Shown here: positions 5,953 through 9,796 of the stretch, one piece after another | Layout: each line of letters starts with the position of its first letter | Position numbering within the stretch: the stretch's first letter is position 1 | Source: Planctomycetota bacterium | GTDB lineage: Bacteria; Planctomycetota; PLA2; JAEUHO01 | Assembly (NCBI GenBank): GCA_965223505.1 | Contig: CBDCWP010000044.1 | Span: forward strand, 224,001-288,000 | Length of the DNA stretch: 64,000 nucleotides | Direction: 5' to 3' | Position numbers and translations under genes: made by a program | The notes under the pieces: generated by a model | Databases searched by the model: none | What the model was told of the DNA's origin: nothing | What the model saw: only the letters and a program-made list of their open reading frames with translations

Positions 5953-6368
5953 TCCGGCGGCTGCGGCGGCAACATCGCGTCACGTTCCTGATCCTGGCGG
6001 TCTTGCTTCCGGCCGTGGTCGTGGCTGCGGTCCTGGCGCGACCCGAGCTGCCGCCGGAGCCGGAACAGCTTGCGTGGCGCGACCAGCGCCCCGGGGGCCG
6101 GACGACGTTCGAGATCGCACAGGAGTCCGGCTGGATCACGCTCACCCGCACATCCGCCTGCGGTGCGCCGGACCTGCTCCTCTACTGGGCGCCCGAACCG
6201 GGCCGGACGGGAGAGGCGGGGCTGCCCGAAGGTGCTCGCCTGCTCGGGACCCTCCCGCCGCAGCCCGACATGCGCGTTCGCCTGAGCGAGACCGGGGGAC
6301 ACGTGATCCTCTACAGCCTGGGTCATCGGGTCGTTCACGCGACGCGAGCGCTGGAGGCAGGTCGATGA
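5949..6368 (+). CDS. Hypothetical membrane-anchored protein
   Basis: ATGA overlaps at both ends; N-terminal TM; PDLLLYW and LYSL.H motifs. Confidence 0.7.
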   Translation: MIRRLRRQHRVTFLILAVLLPAVVVAAVLARPELPPEPEQLAWRDQRPGGRTTFEIAQESGWITLTRTSACGAPDLLLYWAPEPGRTGEAGLPEGARLLGTLPPQPDMRVRLSETGGHVILYSLGHRVVHATRALEAGR

Positions 6369-7399
6369 GCGTGAACTACCGCGCCGTCGGCTGGAATCGC
6401 CAGAAGCGCATCTACGACCTCGTGATGCTGGCCAGCGTTGGGGTATTCCTGATCGGCTTCACCGCCCTAGGTCGCATCGTCGATCCCAATCTCACGTCGA
6501 TCACACTGATGATCAGGGCGACGGCGGTGGCGGCGTTCGTTCTGCTTCACGTCACGCTGTCGATCGGACCGCTGTGCCGCTTGGACCCCCGCTTCCTTCC
6601 GTTGCTCTACAACCGGCGCCACATGGGTGTGACCGTGTTTGCCCTGGCGGCCGTTCACGCGTTCCTGGTCTACGCGCAGTTCCACGCCAATGGCGTGCTG
6701 CATCCGCTCGTGAGCATCCTCGTGGGGAGCGACCGCTACGACAGCCTCGCATGGTTCCCCTTCCAGCCGCTCGGCCTCGGTGCCTTGATCATCTTGCTGC
6801 TCATGGCAGCGACGAGCCACGACTTCTGGCTGCGAAACCTCACCGCCCCTGTGTGGAAGGCGCTGCACATGCTCGTGTATCTGGCGTACGCGCTCGCCGT
6901 CGCGCACGTCGCACTCGGCGCGCTCCAGCCCGAGCGAAGTCCCGTGCTGCTTGCGCTCCTCGGGCTCGGCGTGGCGTGGATCGTCGGACTCCATGCCTTG
7001 TCGGCGACTCGCCATCGAGTGATCGCGCCCGATACCGGCGACGACTTCGTCGATGTAGCGGCGGTGAGCGAGATCGCCGACAAGCGCGCAAAGATCGTCG
7101 AGATCTCCGGAGAGCGGGTCGCGGTGTTTCGCGACGGCAACCGGATCAGCGCCGTTTCCAACGTCTGCCAGCACCAGAGCGGGCCGCTGGGAGAGGGGCG
7201 CATCGGGAAGAACGGGTGCATCGCCTGCCCCTGGCATGGCTACGAGTACGAGCCGGCGACGGGCGCTTCGCCACCGCCGTTCACGGAGCGTATCCCGACG
7301 TTCAACGTTCGCGTCGAAGGAGATCGGGTCCTCGTGCATCCGCGACCGAACGCACCGGGCACGCGTGTCGAGCCCGCCGTCGTGGAGGGCGTCCGATGA
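6365..7399 (+). CDS. Ferric reductase-like (MsrQ-like) TM domain fused to a Rieske 2Fe-2S domain
   Basis: RRHMGV and WKALH heme-type TM motifs; Rieske CQHQSGPL and CPWHG. Confidence 0.9.
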   Translation: MSVNYRAVGWNRQKRIYDLVMLASVGVFLIGFTALGRIVDPNLTSITLMIRATAVAAFVLLHVTLSIGPLCRLDPRFLPLLYNRRHMGVTVFALAAVHAFLVYAQFHANGVLHPLVSILVGSDRYDSLAWFPFQPLGLGALIILLLMAATSHDFWLRNLTAPVWKALHMLVYLAYALAVAHVALGALQPERSPVLLALLGLGVAWIVGLHALSATRHRVIAPDTGDDFVDVAAVSEIADKRAKIVEISGERVAVFRDGNRISAVSNVCQHQSGPLGEGRIGKNGCIACPWHGYEYEPATGASPPPFTERIPTFNVRVEGDRVLVHPRPNAPGTRVEPAVVEGVR

Positions 7400-8148
7400 A
7401 CGACGACTTCTACGTCGGCTATCACAAGCAGGCCGCGCCGCGCGTTGCTTCCTTCCTGCGCAAGGCGGTGCCCGTCGTGGTGGTCACCGCGCTCGTCGTC
7501 GGCGTCGTTGCGCTCACGGCCCATCGAAGGGTCGAAGTGTCCGTCTACGAGGCGCGAGAGATCCGTGAGCTCGAAGGTGTCATCCAGGAAGCGCCCTACC
7601 CGATGCTCCTCGTGGAGCGCCCGGGGCAGGCGGCGTCGGCGGCGCCCTACTCACGCTATCTGATCGTTCGATCGGGGCGGTACGGCGCAGCCGAGGACGT
7701 ACGCGGCCTGAACGGTCGTCGTGCCCGAGTTCCGGCACGGCTCATCTACCGGGGCAATCACACCGTCCTCCAGCTTGCGGGACCGATCGAGCCGCTCGAC
7801 GGCCCCGTCGTCGTGCCTCCGGATCCCGTGCGTGTCCATGACGTAGCTGTCGTGGGGGAGGTCGTGGACGGCAAGTGCTACCTCGGCCGCATGAGCCCCG
7901 GCGGAACGAAGGTCCATCGCGGGTGCGCGGCGCAGTGCATTCGCGGCGGCATCCCGCCGATCCTCGCCTCGATCGACCCGAGCGGCGTGCCCATGTACTT
8001 CCTGCTGACCTCCCCTGACGGGGCGCCGGTCAAGGACGCAGTCATCCCGTTCGTTGCAGAGCGCGTCCGCGTACGTGGCAGCTGGTATCGCCATGGAGAT
8101 CTCTACGAACTTCGCGCGGATCCGTCGACGTACGAGCGCGTGCCCTAG
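7396..8148 (+). CDS. Membrane-anchored Cys/His-motif protein of the same operon
   Basis: ATGA overlap; N-terminal TM; KCYLG.M.PG..KVHRGCAAQCIRGGIPP motif. Confidence 0.75.
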   Translation: MNDDFYVGYHKQAAPRVASFLRKAVPVVVVTALVVGVVALTAHRRVEVSVYEAREIRELEGVIQEAPYPMLLVERPGQAASAAPYSRYLIVRSGRYGAAEDVRGLNGRRARVPARLIYRGNHTVLQLAGPIEPLDGPVVVPPDPVRVHDVAVVGEVVDGKCYLGRMSPGGTKVHRGCAAQCIRGGIPPILASIDPSGVPMYFLLTSPDGAPVKDAVIPFVAERVRVRGSWYRHGDLYELRADPSTYERVP

Positions 8149-9185
8149 CCGCCGTCGATTACCGACATGGGCTGGACCGACAGCGAGCTGAACCGCTGCG
8201 TCTTGCCGTCGAGCTTCTGGTCGAGGATCTTCTCGAAGACCGCCTGCTTCCACTCCAGAGGCGTACGTGGACTCGTTGCCGCGATCGCGTCGTGGATCTG
8301 GATCGAATAGAGCCACAGGCCGCCGGGCTCGACGACGGTGATGGTCTCCGATGAGAGACCGATGCCGGACTTCGACAACAGCGCGACGCTCATCACGTCG
8401 TCGGCCGTCGCGCCCATGGCCAGCCGCTGCTTCAGCTTCCGATGCGCGGCGGAGACGATCGACTCCGCGAACTCGGGCGTGATCTCGTGTTGGGCCGCGA
8501 TCTCGTCTCGGCGCTTGCGGTTGTAGTCCTCGATCGCGTGATCGGGCGCGCCCTTCGAGCTCTCATAGAAGGCCGCCGCGCGCTCGATGGCCGCGAGGGT
8601 CACGGCCGGCGACTGCAGCGCCGGCAGGCAGTCGAAGACCATGCCGTCGGGACGGCAGAAATACAGCGCGATCTCGCCGCCGATCGTGCCGCGAACGCTC
8701 TTGCCGTCGCCCAGGTCGAACTCGGCGATGGCCACGGGCGAGACGGACTCCCAGACCGGGGTGAAGGACTTGCTGACCGCGTCGATGATCCGGCGATCCG
8801 AGAACGTCACGGTTCTCGCAAGCTTGCCGTTCGCTCAGCAGAACTCCTCGTCGAACTTCCCGAAGAGGTGCAAGACCATCAGCGGCTTGTCTCCGCCCTT
8901 GGCTTCCTCCACGGAGCGCCGCCAGAGCAGGCGGCCGTCGCCACCCCACTGGCCGGTGATCTTCGAGAGCGCGCGCCGGCTGTGAACCTGCACCTTCACG
9001 CTGTCGCTCTCGAGTCCCGCCTGCAGGTCGGGAATCGCGTCTGCCCCCTTGGCGGCCCACGCCTGCACGGCGGCGCGCGCAACCTCCGGGTCGCCGCGGA
9101 ACTCGGCGAACGGCTGTTCACTCTGCGCATCACCGCAGGCGGCGAGCGCGACCAAGGCGATACAGGCGAGCACGGCGTGCTTCAT
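8145..9185 (-). CDS. Putative selenoprotein: Selenoprotein N-like lipoprotein with CU motif (in-frame TGA 8837-8835)
   Basis: ORFs 8835..9185 and 8145..8810 are in frame, joined by TGA plus 8 sense codons: LFGKFDEEFC-U-ANGKLARTVTFSDRRIIDAVSKSFTPVWESV; lipobox LAAC; 346 aa. Confidence 0.85.
8793..8834 (-). promoter_or_regulatory. SECIS-like hairpin
   Basis: Perfect 7-bp stem CGAGAAC/GTTCTCG with loop CGTGAC starting 23 nt after the TGA; basal GCGA/TCGC pairing. Confidence 0.7.
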
Positions 9186-9269
9186 GGCGGCCTCCCAACG
9201 GGCTGAGGACTCAGCCTGCCTGTGGAAACGAGCGGCGGTCGCAAAGAGTTCGCAAAACCCCGGAAGCGA

Positions 9270-9617
9270 TCATCCGCCCGCGCGCTTGACGGTCCAGCCG
9301 CGCGCTTCGAGCACGCCGACGAGCGCGTCGCGGTGATCACCCTGGATCTCGATCGTGTCGCCTTTGACGGCCCCGCCGGCGCCGCAGCGCGCCTTGAGCT
9401 GCTTGGCAAGCTGCTTGAGATCGGCGCCCGCCAGCGGAACGCCGGTGATGACGGTCACGCCCTTGCCCTTGCGGCCCTTCGTCGATCGGGAAACGCGCAC
9501 GATGCCGTCGCTCGGCGCGCCCGTGGAGGACGCCTTCTGCTTGCACCGGCACGCCGTCACGAGCCGGTTGCAATCCGGGCACATGCGGCCGTGATCGGTC
9601 GAGTAGACGCGCCGCAT
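9270..9617 (-). CDS. yciH: Translation initiation factor SUI1/YciH family
   Basis: VYSTD, KGRKGKGVTVI, CGAGGAVK and IEIQGDHRD motifs. Confidence 0.95.
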   Translation of the reverse strand: MRRVYSTDHGRMCPDCNRLVTACRCKQKASSTGAPSDGIVRVSRSTKGRKGKGVTVITGVPLAGADLKQLAKQLKARCGAGGAVKGDTIEIQGDHRDALVGVLEARGWTVKRAGG

Positions 9618-9796
9618 CACTCGGCCTGGGCCCGCACGTCGGCGCGTCCCTCCGCGTCGACCTCGACGTGGAGGACGTTGGCGCGGCAGCAGACCGGACA
9701 GTCTTCGACATAGCGCTGCCGCTCGCCTTGCGAAACGTCGATCGGGACGACGATCTCCTCGCCGCAGGCGTCGCACACGTAGGCGCCTTCGTTCAT
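9617..9796 (-). CDS. CPXCG-motif cysteine-rich small protein
   Basis: CDACGE...YVEDCPVCCRAN; TGATG-coupled to both neighbours. Confidence 0.9.
   Translation of the reverse strand: MNEGAYVCDACGEEIVVPIDVSQGERQRYVEDCPVCCRANVLHVEVDAEGRADVRAQAE

What the first reader, a model, noticed from the sequence alone, without database searches (positions are those of the whole stretch)
8145..9185. Bacterial Selenoprotein-N-like lipoprotein retaining a C-U motif
Seen: LHLFGKFDEEFC-U-ANGKLARTVTFSDRRIIDAVSKSFTPVWESV, with a perfect 7-bp hairpin after the TGA. From memory, animal SELENON reads about [43 protein letters not shown], which gives matching G..D...CU..G...R and SF...W spacing. Inference: a Sec-containing prokaryotic SelN relative with a lipobox and a short HEAT-like N-terminal region, relevant to the origin of SelN.
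Basis: partly seen in the sequence, partly recalled or inferred. Interest (0 to 1): 0.82.

Follow-up and report, generated by a model that had tools for sequence, protein, structure and literature searches.

The report
Hidden selenocysteine thioredoxin-fold lipoprotein gene
What looks like two short genes split by a stop codon is one gene for an exported, selenium-containing redox protein, part of a very large and unnamed bacterial family that may be related to the human muscle-disease protein selenoprotein N.

Summary
Window 8145-9185 (minus strand) is one 346-codon frame with a single in-frame TGA at codon 117, in the quoted F-C-U-A-N context, followed by a 7-bp hairpin.

The TGA is almost certainly a selenocysteine codon:
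- It sits at the same column in 28 of 32 related loci, and the other 4 have Cys there.
- In 27 Sec forms the hairpin keeps its place, its GU-containing loop and its pairing through compensatory changes. It is lost in 5 of 5 Cys forms.
- The genome has selA, selB, selD and tRNA-Sec.

The protein has a lipobox, a short HEAT-like region, a thioredoxin fold of the DsbD-gamma/DsbH/AGR type with Cys116-Sec117 just before helix 1, and a helical C-terminal domain. It belongs to a family with at least 1840 representative clusters. Those that carry a name are called "hypothetical". The family is absent from the 119-family 2026 inventory of prokaryotic selenoproteins.

The selenoprotein N link could not be tested, because no tool yielded a SELENON sequence. 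It rests on recall and a few published residue positions.

Earlier notes of this scan report the same kind of gene on other DNA, mainly Poribacteria.

The parts
8145..9185 (-). Whole gene: 346 codons plus TAG stop (8145-8147), with one in-frame TGA
   Evidence: Both halves are conserved and in frame in 10 of 10 orthologue loci.
9191..9196 (-). Shine-Dalgarno-like GGGAGG, 5 nt before the ATG
   Evidence: Read directly; no test run.
9135..9185 (-). Signal peptide with lipobox L-A-A-C (residues 1-17)
   Evidence: By inspection. A lipobox-like Cys occurs in 7 of 11 orthologues, and 3 have a plain signal peptide. Model helix 2-15 has low pLDDT. No signal-peptide predictor was available.
8955..9107 (-). 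HEAT-like helical repeats (residues 27-77)
   Evidence: Pfam HEAT_2 E 0.013, 16.2 bits against a cut-off of 27.7. Model helices 33-45, 47-57 and 63-77 at pLDDT about 95. Foldseek CpcE/F and alphaRep rows.
8553..8939 (-). Thioredoxin-fold domain (residues about 83-211)
8835..8840 (-). Codons TGC TGA = Cys116-Sec117, the predicted redox centre just before helix 118-125
   Evidence: TGA at this column in 28 of 32 loci, TGC/TGT in 4.
8799..8818 (-). bSECIS-like hairpin: 7-bp stem, loop CGUGAC, starting 16 nt after the UGA
   Evidence: Alignment A3 of 27 Sec forms: 95.8% of cells paired, 5 of 7 pairs with compensatory changes, 0 of 500 shuffles as high. Sec forms keep 6-7 of 7 pairs, Cys forms 2-4 of 7.
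8148..8552 (-). C-terminal, mostly helical domain (residues 212-346), role unknown
   Evidence: Model helices 215-233, 237-257, 260-273, 290-303 and 309-320; residues 273-283 have pLDDT below 50. Conserved among orthologues. Not searched as a separate domain.

Best explanation
Window 8145-9185 (-) is a single gene of a Planctomycetota bacterium. Its mRNA carries UGA at codon 117. I infer that SelB with Sec-tRNA(Sec) reads this UGA as selenocysteine, recruited by a hairpin 16 nt downstream (window 8799-8818) that lies inside the coding sequence for A-R-T-V-T-F-S. The 346-residue product is exported and probably lipid-anchored at Cys17 (inferred from the lipobox). It consists of two or three HEAT-like helical repeats, a thioredoxin fold of the DsbD-gamma/DsbH/AGR (Thioredoxin_7-like) type, and a helical C-terminal domain. 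Sec117 sits where thioredoxins place their attacking cysteine, immediately before helix 1, and Cys116 is its direct neighbour. The most likely chemistry (inferred, not shown) is an extracytoplasmic thiol/selenol oxidoreductase that cycles between a vicinal Cys-Sec selenenylsulfide and the reduced selenol/thiol. This is the same chemistry as the Gly-Cys-Sec-Gly centre of mammalian thioredoxin reductase, as I recall it. Such an enzyme would reduce oxidised cysteines or peroxides in envelope proteins and be recharged by a membrane electron shuttle such as DsbD. The gene belongs to an all-Sec orthologue group inside a very large, unnamed bacterial superfamily that gene callers cut in two. That superfamily is plausibly, but here untestedly, the bacterial counterpart of the thioredoxin domain of animal selenoprotein N.
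For: Sec codon:
- TGA is at the aligned column in 28 of 32 loci (27 distinct Sec forms), with TGC/TGT in the other 4.
- 27 further divergent copies in 20 more loci all carry TGA in the motif.
- Protein conservation runs across the TGA, with invariant residues on both sides in 11 orthologues of 40-71% identity, including a Verrucomicrobiota one.
- All 67 database relatives are 192-249-aa C-terminal pieces, so none is a full-length Cys orthologue.

SECIS:
- The six inner pairs are formed in 27 of 27 Sec forms. Five of 7 pairs show compensatory changes. G and U in the loop are invariant. No shuffle of 500 reaches the observed values, and partners slid by 1-3 columns give 20-55% pairing.
- Five of 5 Cys forms keep only 2-4 of 7 pairs, although some encode the same R-T-V-L-Y-A peptide.

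Machinery in the same genome: selB 335.7 bits, tRNA-Sec 69.2 bits, selA 507.2 bits, and selD 338.1 bits (itself with a TGA), all over cut-off.

Fold:
- AlphaFold2 mean pLDDT 87.9, pTM 0.85; strand 102-109, then residue 117, then helix 118-125.
- Sub-threshold Thioredoxin_7/DsbH hits in 8 of 16 paralogues, and AGR2 as the best PDB sequence match.

Family size: 1840 representatives at E <= 0.001 and 877 at <= 1e-10 for a 69-column profile around the Sec.
Against: - No experiment: Sec insertion, export, lipidation and redox activity are all inferred.
- The window protein itself has no significant Pfam or NCBIfam hit.
- Foldseek found no PDB match at E <= 0.001; the best was 0.016.
- The hairpin region's folding energy is not better than shuffles (z -0.08), and Rfam has no match there.
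- The stem codons also encode a conserved peptide, so part of the nucleotide conservation is protein-driven. The outermost pair fails in 8 of 27 sequences.
- No conserved neighbouring gene points to a pathway.
- The residue before Sec is Cys in all 11 orthologues but Thr, Ser or Leu in other classes. A vicinal Cys-Sec couple therefore cannot be the mechanism of the whole superfamily.
- The model was built with Cys in place of Sec.
Confidence: 0.82

Rival explanations
1. The gene is a real selenoprotein of the thioredoxin fold, but its likeness to animal selenoprotein N is only the shared general fold plus a convergent Cys-Sec pair. It is not specifically related to SELENON.
For: No tool result links it to SELENON. 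The PDB profile search, Pfam, NCBIfam and the protein atlas gave only Thioredoxin_7/DsbH/AGR-type neighbours. A DNA pattern for S-C-U-G..R..R.T-V with Asp at -5 found no family member in metagenome contigs: 18 chance hits and no profile match. Among roughly 54 Sec forms seen, none has Gly after Sec as SELENON does. SELENON's EF-hand and membrane anchor are missing. One earlier scan note on this link is marked 'part of it fell'.
Against: Published SELENON residues fit the family's most conserved columns. These are Cys directly before Sec inside a Trx domain, Arg469 at U+7 where the family has an invariant Arg, and Arg466 at U+4 where the window has Lys and five paralogues have Arg. My own recall of the SELENON sequence, unverified and not used in any call, suggests similarity over about 130 residues.
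Confidence: 0.3
2. The Cys-Sec pair is not a catalytic redox centre. Instead it is a binding site for a soft metal or chalcogen (Cu, Hg, Se, S), making the protein an envelope chaperone or sensor.
For: CU motifs occur in several metal-handling selenoproteins listed in Table 1 of PMC13188914, such as MbdU, HgcA, SaoL and a CopZ-family form. The C-terminal domain and HEAT-like part have no assigned role. The residue before Sec varies between classes.
Against: Sec sits at the classic attacking-cysteine position of a thioredoxin fold. The closest folds are disulfide reductases and isomerases. No metal-transport or resistance gene is a conserved neighbour.
Confidence: 0.12
3. The TGA is a genuine stop. 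The locus is two genes or a pseudogene, and the hairpin is incidental.
For: All 67 database entries are annotated as separate C-terminal proteins. The C-terminal frame has a GTG start at 8810. Hairpin energy is not above chance.
Against: The TGA is kept at one column in distant genomes while flanks stay conserved. The hairpin covaries and is lost in Cys forms. Cys-containing relatives run uninterrupted through the same column, 144 of the top 150 with S-C. The genome has full Sec machinery. The thioredoxin fold would be cut between strand 1 and helix 1.
Confidence: 0.03

Closest known systems
Animal selenoprotein N (SELENON / SEPN1)
   Same: Both have a thioredoxin-like domain carrying Cys directly followed by Sec (S-C-U-G in SELENON). 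Both are located outside the cytosol (ER lumen versus bacterial envelope). Arg is at U+7 (Arg469), and a basic residue is at U+4 (Arg466). Both have an RNA stem-loop in the coding sequence right after the UGA that helps Sec insertion: the SRE in SELENON and the bSECIS-like hairpin here.
   Different: There is no EF-hand, no type II membrane anchor, and no large luminal domain upstream of the Trx domain. The motif is F-C-U-A, not S-C-U-G. The protein adds a HEAT-like N-terminal part and a 135-residue helical C-terminal domain, and it is lipid-anchored. Homology itself was not tested, because no SELENON sequence was obtainable from the tools.
Thioredoxin_7 / Thioredox_DsbH group (PF13899, PF03190): DsbD-gamma, DsbH, AGR2/3, ERp19, UAS domains
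   Different: Pfam scores are below the curated cut-off: none for the window protein and at most 20.2 bits against 27 in paralogues. The active site is C-U (or x-U / S-C) instead of CxxC/CxxS, and the position three residues after Sec is Gly. There is no cis-Pro before strand 3, where Glu171 or Asn is conserved instead (my own comparison with the thioredoxin motif recalled from memory; family residues).
C-terminal Gly-Cys-Sec-Gly redox centre of mammalian thioredoxin reductase (recalled; mentioned in PMC12839072)
   Same: A vicinal Cys-Sec pair that could form a selenenylsulfide. This is the chemical model for how the site may work.
   Different: In the reductase the pair sits on a flexible C-terminal tail of a flavoenzyme. 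Here it is inside a thioredoxin fold at the helix-1 N-cap. There is no sequence or fold relation.
Catalogued bacterial thioredoxin-fold selenoproteins decoded by SelB and an in-gene SECIS (e.g. Trx UxxC, thiol:disulfide interchange protein UxxC, Trx7/PDZ protein NF041199 CxxU; Table 1 of PMC13188914)
   Same: The same decoding system, the same general fold, and the same habit of being cut at the UGA by gene callers.
   Different: No catalogued family has this architecture or a C-U motif in a Thioredoxin_7-like fold. No NCBIfam model matches.

Membership tests
Bacterial SelB/bSECIS-decoded selenoprotein gene | In-frame UGA conserved among homologues, with conserved coding sequence on both sides | tested here: met
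   28 of 32 loci have TGA at the column. Invariant residues lie on both sides in 11 orthologues.
Bacterial SelB/bSECIS-decoded selenoprotein gene | Stem-loop shortly downstream of the UGA with a small apical loop bearing G/U. The published consensus spacing is recalled, not read here. | tested here: met
   The hairpin starts 16 nt after the UGA, with loop CGUGNN and invariant G and U. 95.8% of cells are paired, 5 of 7 pairs are compensatory, and 0 of 500 shuffles reach this.
Bacterial SelB/bSECIS-decoded selenoprotein gene | Cys-containing homologues align Cys with the UGA | tested here: met
   4 loci plus the own-genome paralogue L049 have TGC/TGT there. 148 of the top 150 representatives have Cys at the column.
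Bacterial SelB/bSECIS-decoded selenoprotein gene | Genome encodes selA, selB, selD and tRNA-Sec | tested here: met
   All four are over the curated cut-offs.
Bacterial SelB/bSECIS-decoded selenoprotein gene | Selenium actually incorporated | not testable with these tools
   Needs 75Se labelling or mass spectrometry.
Selenoprotein N (SELENON) | Significant sequence or profile similarity to SELENON | not testable with these tools
   No SELENON sequence could be obtained.
Selenoprotein N (SELENON) | Cys-Sec within a thioredoxin-like domain (S-C-U-G) | tested here: inconclusive
   C-U is present at the Trx active-site position, but the flanks are F and A instead of S and G. SCUG is taken from papers.
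Selenoprotein N (SELENON) | EF-hand calcium sensor and single-pass type II membrane anchor | tested here: not met
   No EF-hand in Pfam at E <= 1. The N-terminus is a lipoprotein signal, not a membrane anchor followed by an EF-hand.
Thioredoxin_7 / Thioredox_DsbH (Pfam PF13899 / PF03190) | Score over Pfam's gathering cut-off | tested here: not met
   The window protein has no hit at E <= 1. Eight of 16 paralogues hit below cut-off, with a best score of 20.2 against 27 bits.
Thioredoxin_7 / Thioredox_DsbH (Pfam PF13899 / PF03190) | Thioredoxin fold of the DsbD-gamma/DsbH/AGR type | tested here: met
Bacterial lipoprotein | Signal peptide ending in a lipobox [LVI][ASTVI][GAS]C | tested here: inconclusive
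   L-A-A-C17 after a hydrophobic stretch, by eye. A similar box occurs in 7 of 11 orthologues. No predictor was run.

The most novel reading that the evidence does not exclude
This bacterial superfamily may be the stock from which the thioredoxin domain of animal selenoprotein N came, with selenocysteine already in place. On the midpoint-rooted quick tree the superfamily is mostly Sec-containing and the deep branches are all Sec. If so, the stem-loop that sits right after the UGA in the SELENON coding sequence (the SRE, which includes the Arg466 and Arg469 codons) could be a relic of the bacterial in-gene SECIS hairpin. Here that hairpin covers the codon of the matching invariant Arg124. Simple bacterial members would then be tractable models for the unknown chemistry of a human muscle-disease protein.
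Probability: 0.3. Interest if true: 0.85.

Novelty: new variant of a known kind. Interest (0 to 1): 0.62.

Why it matters
- A family with at least 1840 representative clusters, whose Sec members are systematically cut in two by gene callers and labelled hypothetical, is missing from the newest inventory of prokaryotic selenoproteins. Bacterial selenoproteomes, at least in Planctomycetota, are therefore undercounted.
- The active site is unusual for a thioredoxin fold: a Cys-Sec neighbour pair instead of CxxC/UxxC.
- If the untested link to selenoprotein N holds, it would give that poorly understood disease protein its first prokaryotic relatives. These are small, soluble, single-domain proteins suited to structure and enzymology. 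The link would also raise a concrete hypothesis for the origin of SELENON's odd in-frame recoding element.

Tried and rejected
With the genome's natural Cys paralogue it returned only unnamed bacterial clusters (score 0.97). Restricted to named clusters it returned Thioredoxin_7-type clusters at 0.77, which is lead level only.
- PDB sequence profile search: only AGR2 at E 0.11, and no SELENON chain.
- Representatives search with a 69-column profile spanning the Sec, meant to favour unsplit proteins such as SELENON: the 150 rows shown were all high-scoring 138-549-aa proteins whose match begins within the first 300 residues, and the 10 looked up were unnamed or 'hypothetical'. SELENON, if among the 1840 hits, could not be seen.
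- Metagenome DNA pattern for S-C-U-G..R..R.T-V: 18 chance matches, none of the family.
- The search for homologous proteins 'longer' with alignment A5: it searched only 995-2840 aa and found nothing, so it was uninformative.
- Supplements that might print SelN sequences were unreadable or empty.
- Full-text search for short SELENON motif strings found nothing relevant.
- Conserved gene neighbourhood: none within about 1.5 kb in 10 orthologue loci, apart from three close relatives that share neighbours with each other.
- Rfam: no match on the hairpin, only a sub-threshold H19_2 hit on unrelated sequence.
- The careful tree search did not finish in 288 s, so only the quick tree is reported.
- I recalled that a 2020 PNAS paper used a bacterial SEPN1 homologue. 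The text holds no such mention, so that recollection is withdrawn.
Full report
OBSERVATION. On the minus strand, window 8145-9185 is one frame of 346 codons with a single TGA at codon 117 (window 8835-8837) and a TAG stop at 8145-8147. Sixteen nucleotides after the UGA lies CGAGAAC-CGUGAC-GUUCUCG, a 7-bp stem with a 6-nt loop, at window 8799-8818. Two points are weak when taken alone. The 81-nt stretch folds no better than shuffled sequence (z -0.08). Long open frames are also common in this 70% G+C DNA. The case therefore rests on comparison.

THE TGA IS A SELENOCYSTEINE CODON.
- A search of 401 genomes of the phylum found relatives in 70, and in 40 of the 243 high-quality ones. A scan of species genomes added a Planctomycetales and a Roseibacillus (Verrucomicrobiota) locus.
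- In the 32 loci read through, the aligned column is TGA in 28 (27 distinct sequences including the window) and TGC/TGT in 4.
- Twenty further, more divergent loci gave 27 copies, each with TGA inside the same motif.
- Among 11 orthologues of 40-71% identity, invariant residues lie on both sides of the codon (T77 G78 Q79 ... F115 C116 U117 A118 N119 ... R124 T125 V126 T127 F128 S129 ... W145 E146). Both halves are adjacent and in frame in 10 of 10 orthologue loci.
- All 67 database relatives are 192-249-residue C-terminal pieces. Annotation stops at the TGA everywhere, and no full-length Cys orthologue was found in the 190-606-aa range searched.

THE HAIRPIN.
- In an ungapped alignment of the 27 Sec forms, it keeps its position. 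The six inner pairs are formed in 27 of 27.
- Five of 7 pairs show changes on both sides (A-U to C-G, U-A, G-C). G and U in the loop are invariant.
- 95.8% of cells pair, against 84.3% in shuffles (0 of 500 as high) and 20-55% when the partners are slid.
- The outermost pair fails in 8 of 27.
- As a control, 5 of 5 Cys forms keep only 2-4 of the 7 pairs. Several of them encode the same R-T-V-L-Y-A peptide with other synonymous codons.

The genome holds selB (335.7 bits), tRNA-Sec (69.2 bits), selA (507.2 bits) and a selD that itself contains a TGA (338.1 bits). All four are over the curated cut-offs.

THE PROTEIN.
- The N-terminus (MKH, a hydrophobic run, L-A-A-C17) looks like a lipoprotein signal by eye. 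Seven of 11 orthologues have such a box and three have a plain signal peptide.
- AlphaFold2 on a 67-row alignment gave mean pLDDT 87.9 and pTM 0.85.
- The model shows helices 33-77 (HEAT-like; Pfam HEAT_2 E 0.013, below cut-off; Foldseek CpcE/F).
- A thioredoxin fold follows, with strand 102-109, residue 117 directly before helix 118-125, and strands 142-188.
- A helical C-terminal domain runs to about residue 320.
- Foldseek alone had no match at E <= 0.001 (best 0.016).
- The window protein has no Pfam or NCBIfam hit. Eight of 16 paralogues hit Thioredoxin_7 or Thioredox_DsbH below cut-off.
- Sec117 thus occupies the attacking-cysteine position. The residue three places on is Gly, and the only nearby thiol is its neighbour Cys116.

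THE FAMILY.
- A 69-column profile around the Sec found 1840 representative proteins (50% clusters) at E <= 0.001 and 877 at <= 1e-10.
- Of the 150 best, 144 read S-C at the two motif positions. Two read T-C, two C-C, one C-S and one C-W.
- Of ten looked up, four were named 'hypothetical protein' and six carried no name.
- The genome's own Cys paralogue (L049, 446 aa) lies nearest to unnamed clusters from Acidobacteriota, Myxococcota and Planctomycetota.
- Sec forms come in many classes: C-U-A-N, C-U-T-N, T-U-T-N, G-C-U-A-A, x-L-U-L-G, x-L-U-S-A and T-U-N-N. Some stand in tandem arrays.
- I built a quick IQ-TREE of 98 core segments: 53 Sec, 43 Cys and 2 other. Of the 150 representatives I kept every fourth S-C row and all non-S-C rows. 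Segments under 100 aa were dropped, and the careful search did not finish.
- The tree puts the window in an 11-row all-Sec clade (SH-aLRT 98). It puts 41 S/T-C-A-N Cys rows inside a 46-row clade (97) with five C-U-A-N Sec rows. The Sec/Cys label needs only 3 changes.
- Under midpoint rooting the deep branches are all Sec. The root is not established.

CONTEXT. The neighbours are a ferric-reductase/Rieske protein, an unknown convergent gene, a SUI1-family gene, a GNAT acetyltransferase and a glycosyltransferase. None is conserved next to the orthologues. The gene appears to stand alone.

THE SELENOPROTEIN N QUESTION. I could not obtain a SELENON sequence from any tool; the attempts are listed under Tried and rejected.

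What I saw in papers (passages only):
- SELENON has a thioredoxin domain with an S-C-U-G motif and Sec462. Arg466Gln/Trp are pathogenic (PMC8967691; PMC12839072).
- G463V, R466Q and R469W/Q lie in a stem-loop (the SRE) immediately after the UGA that promotes Sec insertion (PMC3541580).
- W453S is a patient variant (PMC6438913).

Counting from Sec, the window protein compares as follows:
- It shares C at -1 and R at +7. The R at +7 is invariant in the 27-row profile.
- It has K for R at +4, where five paralogues have R.
- It has F for W at -9.
- It differs at -2 (F for S) and at +1 (A for G).

That is suggestive but thin. SELENON's EF-hand and type II anchor are absent.

Earlier notes of this scan call similar genes in Poribacteria and other bacteria 'bacterial selenoprotein N homologues'. 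One is marked 'part of it fell'. They are leads, not evidence. I put the chance of specific homology at about 0.6.

LITERATURE.
- Table 1 of the May 2026 inventory of 119 prokaryotic selenoprotein families (PMC13188914) was read in full. It has no Thioredoxin_7-like C-U family and no selenoprotein N entry. Its text names SelD, GPX, deiodinase-like, SELENOW-like and MsrA as examples of families that are also present in eukaryotes.
- A 2026 SelN review (PMC12839072) and the 2020 PNAS paper (PMC7474598) contain no occurrence of 'bacteri'.
- Searches for bacterial or prokaryotic SelN homologues found nothing relevant. The library lacks most subscription papers.

MECHANISM.
- Shown: a conserved UGA, a covarying hairpin, the Sec machinery, the thioredoxin fold, and Sec at the active-site position.
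- Inferred: SelB-dependent decoding, export and lipidation, and a Cys116-Sec117 selenenylsulfide/selenol cycle acting on oxidised envelope thiols or peroxides.
- Other classes have Thr, Ser or Leu before Sec. The conserved element of the superfamily is therefore the lone Sec/Cys, and the vicinal couple may be a speciality of this class.

Noticed in passing
G000:C8:36851-39232 (own genome, other contig): selA (507 bits) is directly followed by selD (338 bits), and selD itself carries one in-frame TGA, so it is a Sec-containing SelD.
   Followed up: no
L049:1229-2569 (-) = G000:C5: The genome's own Cys-form paralogue (446 aa, motif S-C-A-N-S, C-terminal D-P-W-L-G-L). It lacks the hairpin, with only 2 of 7 pairs.
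   Followed up: partly
L050 (G335:C92:9300-13600) and L051-L053: Tandem arrays of divergent Sec paralogues in other Planctomycetota. L050 holds three G-C-U-A-A-G copies. Other genomes hold x-L-U-L-G and C-U-L-A pairs side by side.
   Followed up: partly
P0072 and P0071 (representative proteins): Two database proteins read C-W-T-N and C-S-T-N at the Sec column. The Trp may be a TGA translated under another code by a gene caller (my guess, unchecked).
   Followed up: no
window 6362-7399 (+): A fusion of a ferric-reductase-like transmembrane domain with a Rieske [2Fe-2S] domain. An unknown 251-aa protein follows at 7393-8148, convergent on the selenoprotein gene.
   Followed up: no
window 9270-9776 (-): A SUI1-family translation factor gene with a roughly 90-residue Arg-rich N-terminal extension in the longest frame, 85 nt upstream of the selenoprotein gene on the same strand.
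   Followed up: no
L018:4012-4014: The Planctomycetales orthologue ends at an ordinary TGA stop two codons before the frame's next stop. TGA therefore serves both as Sec and as stop in the same gene.
   Followed up: no
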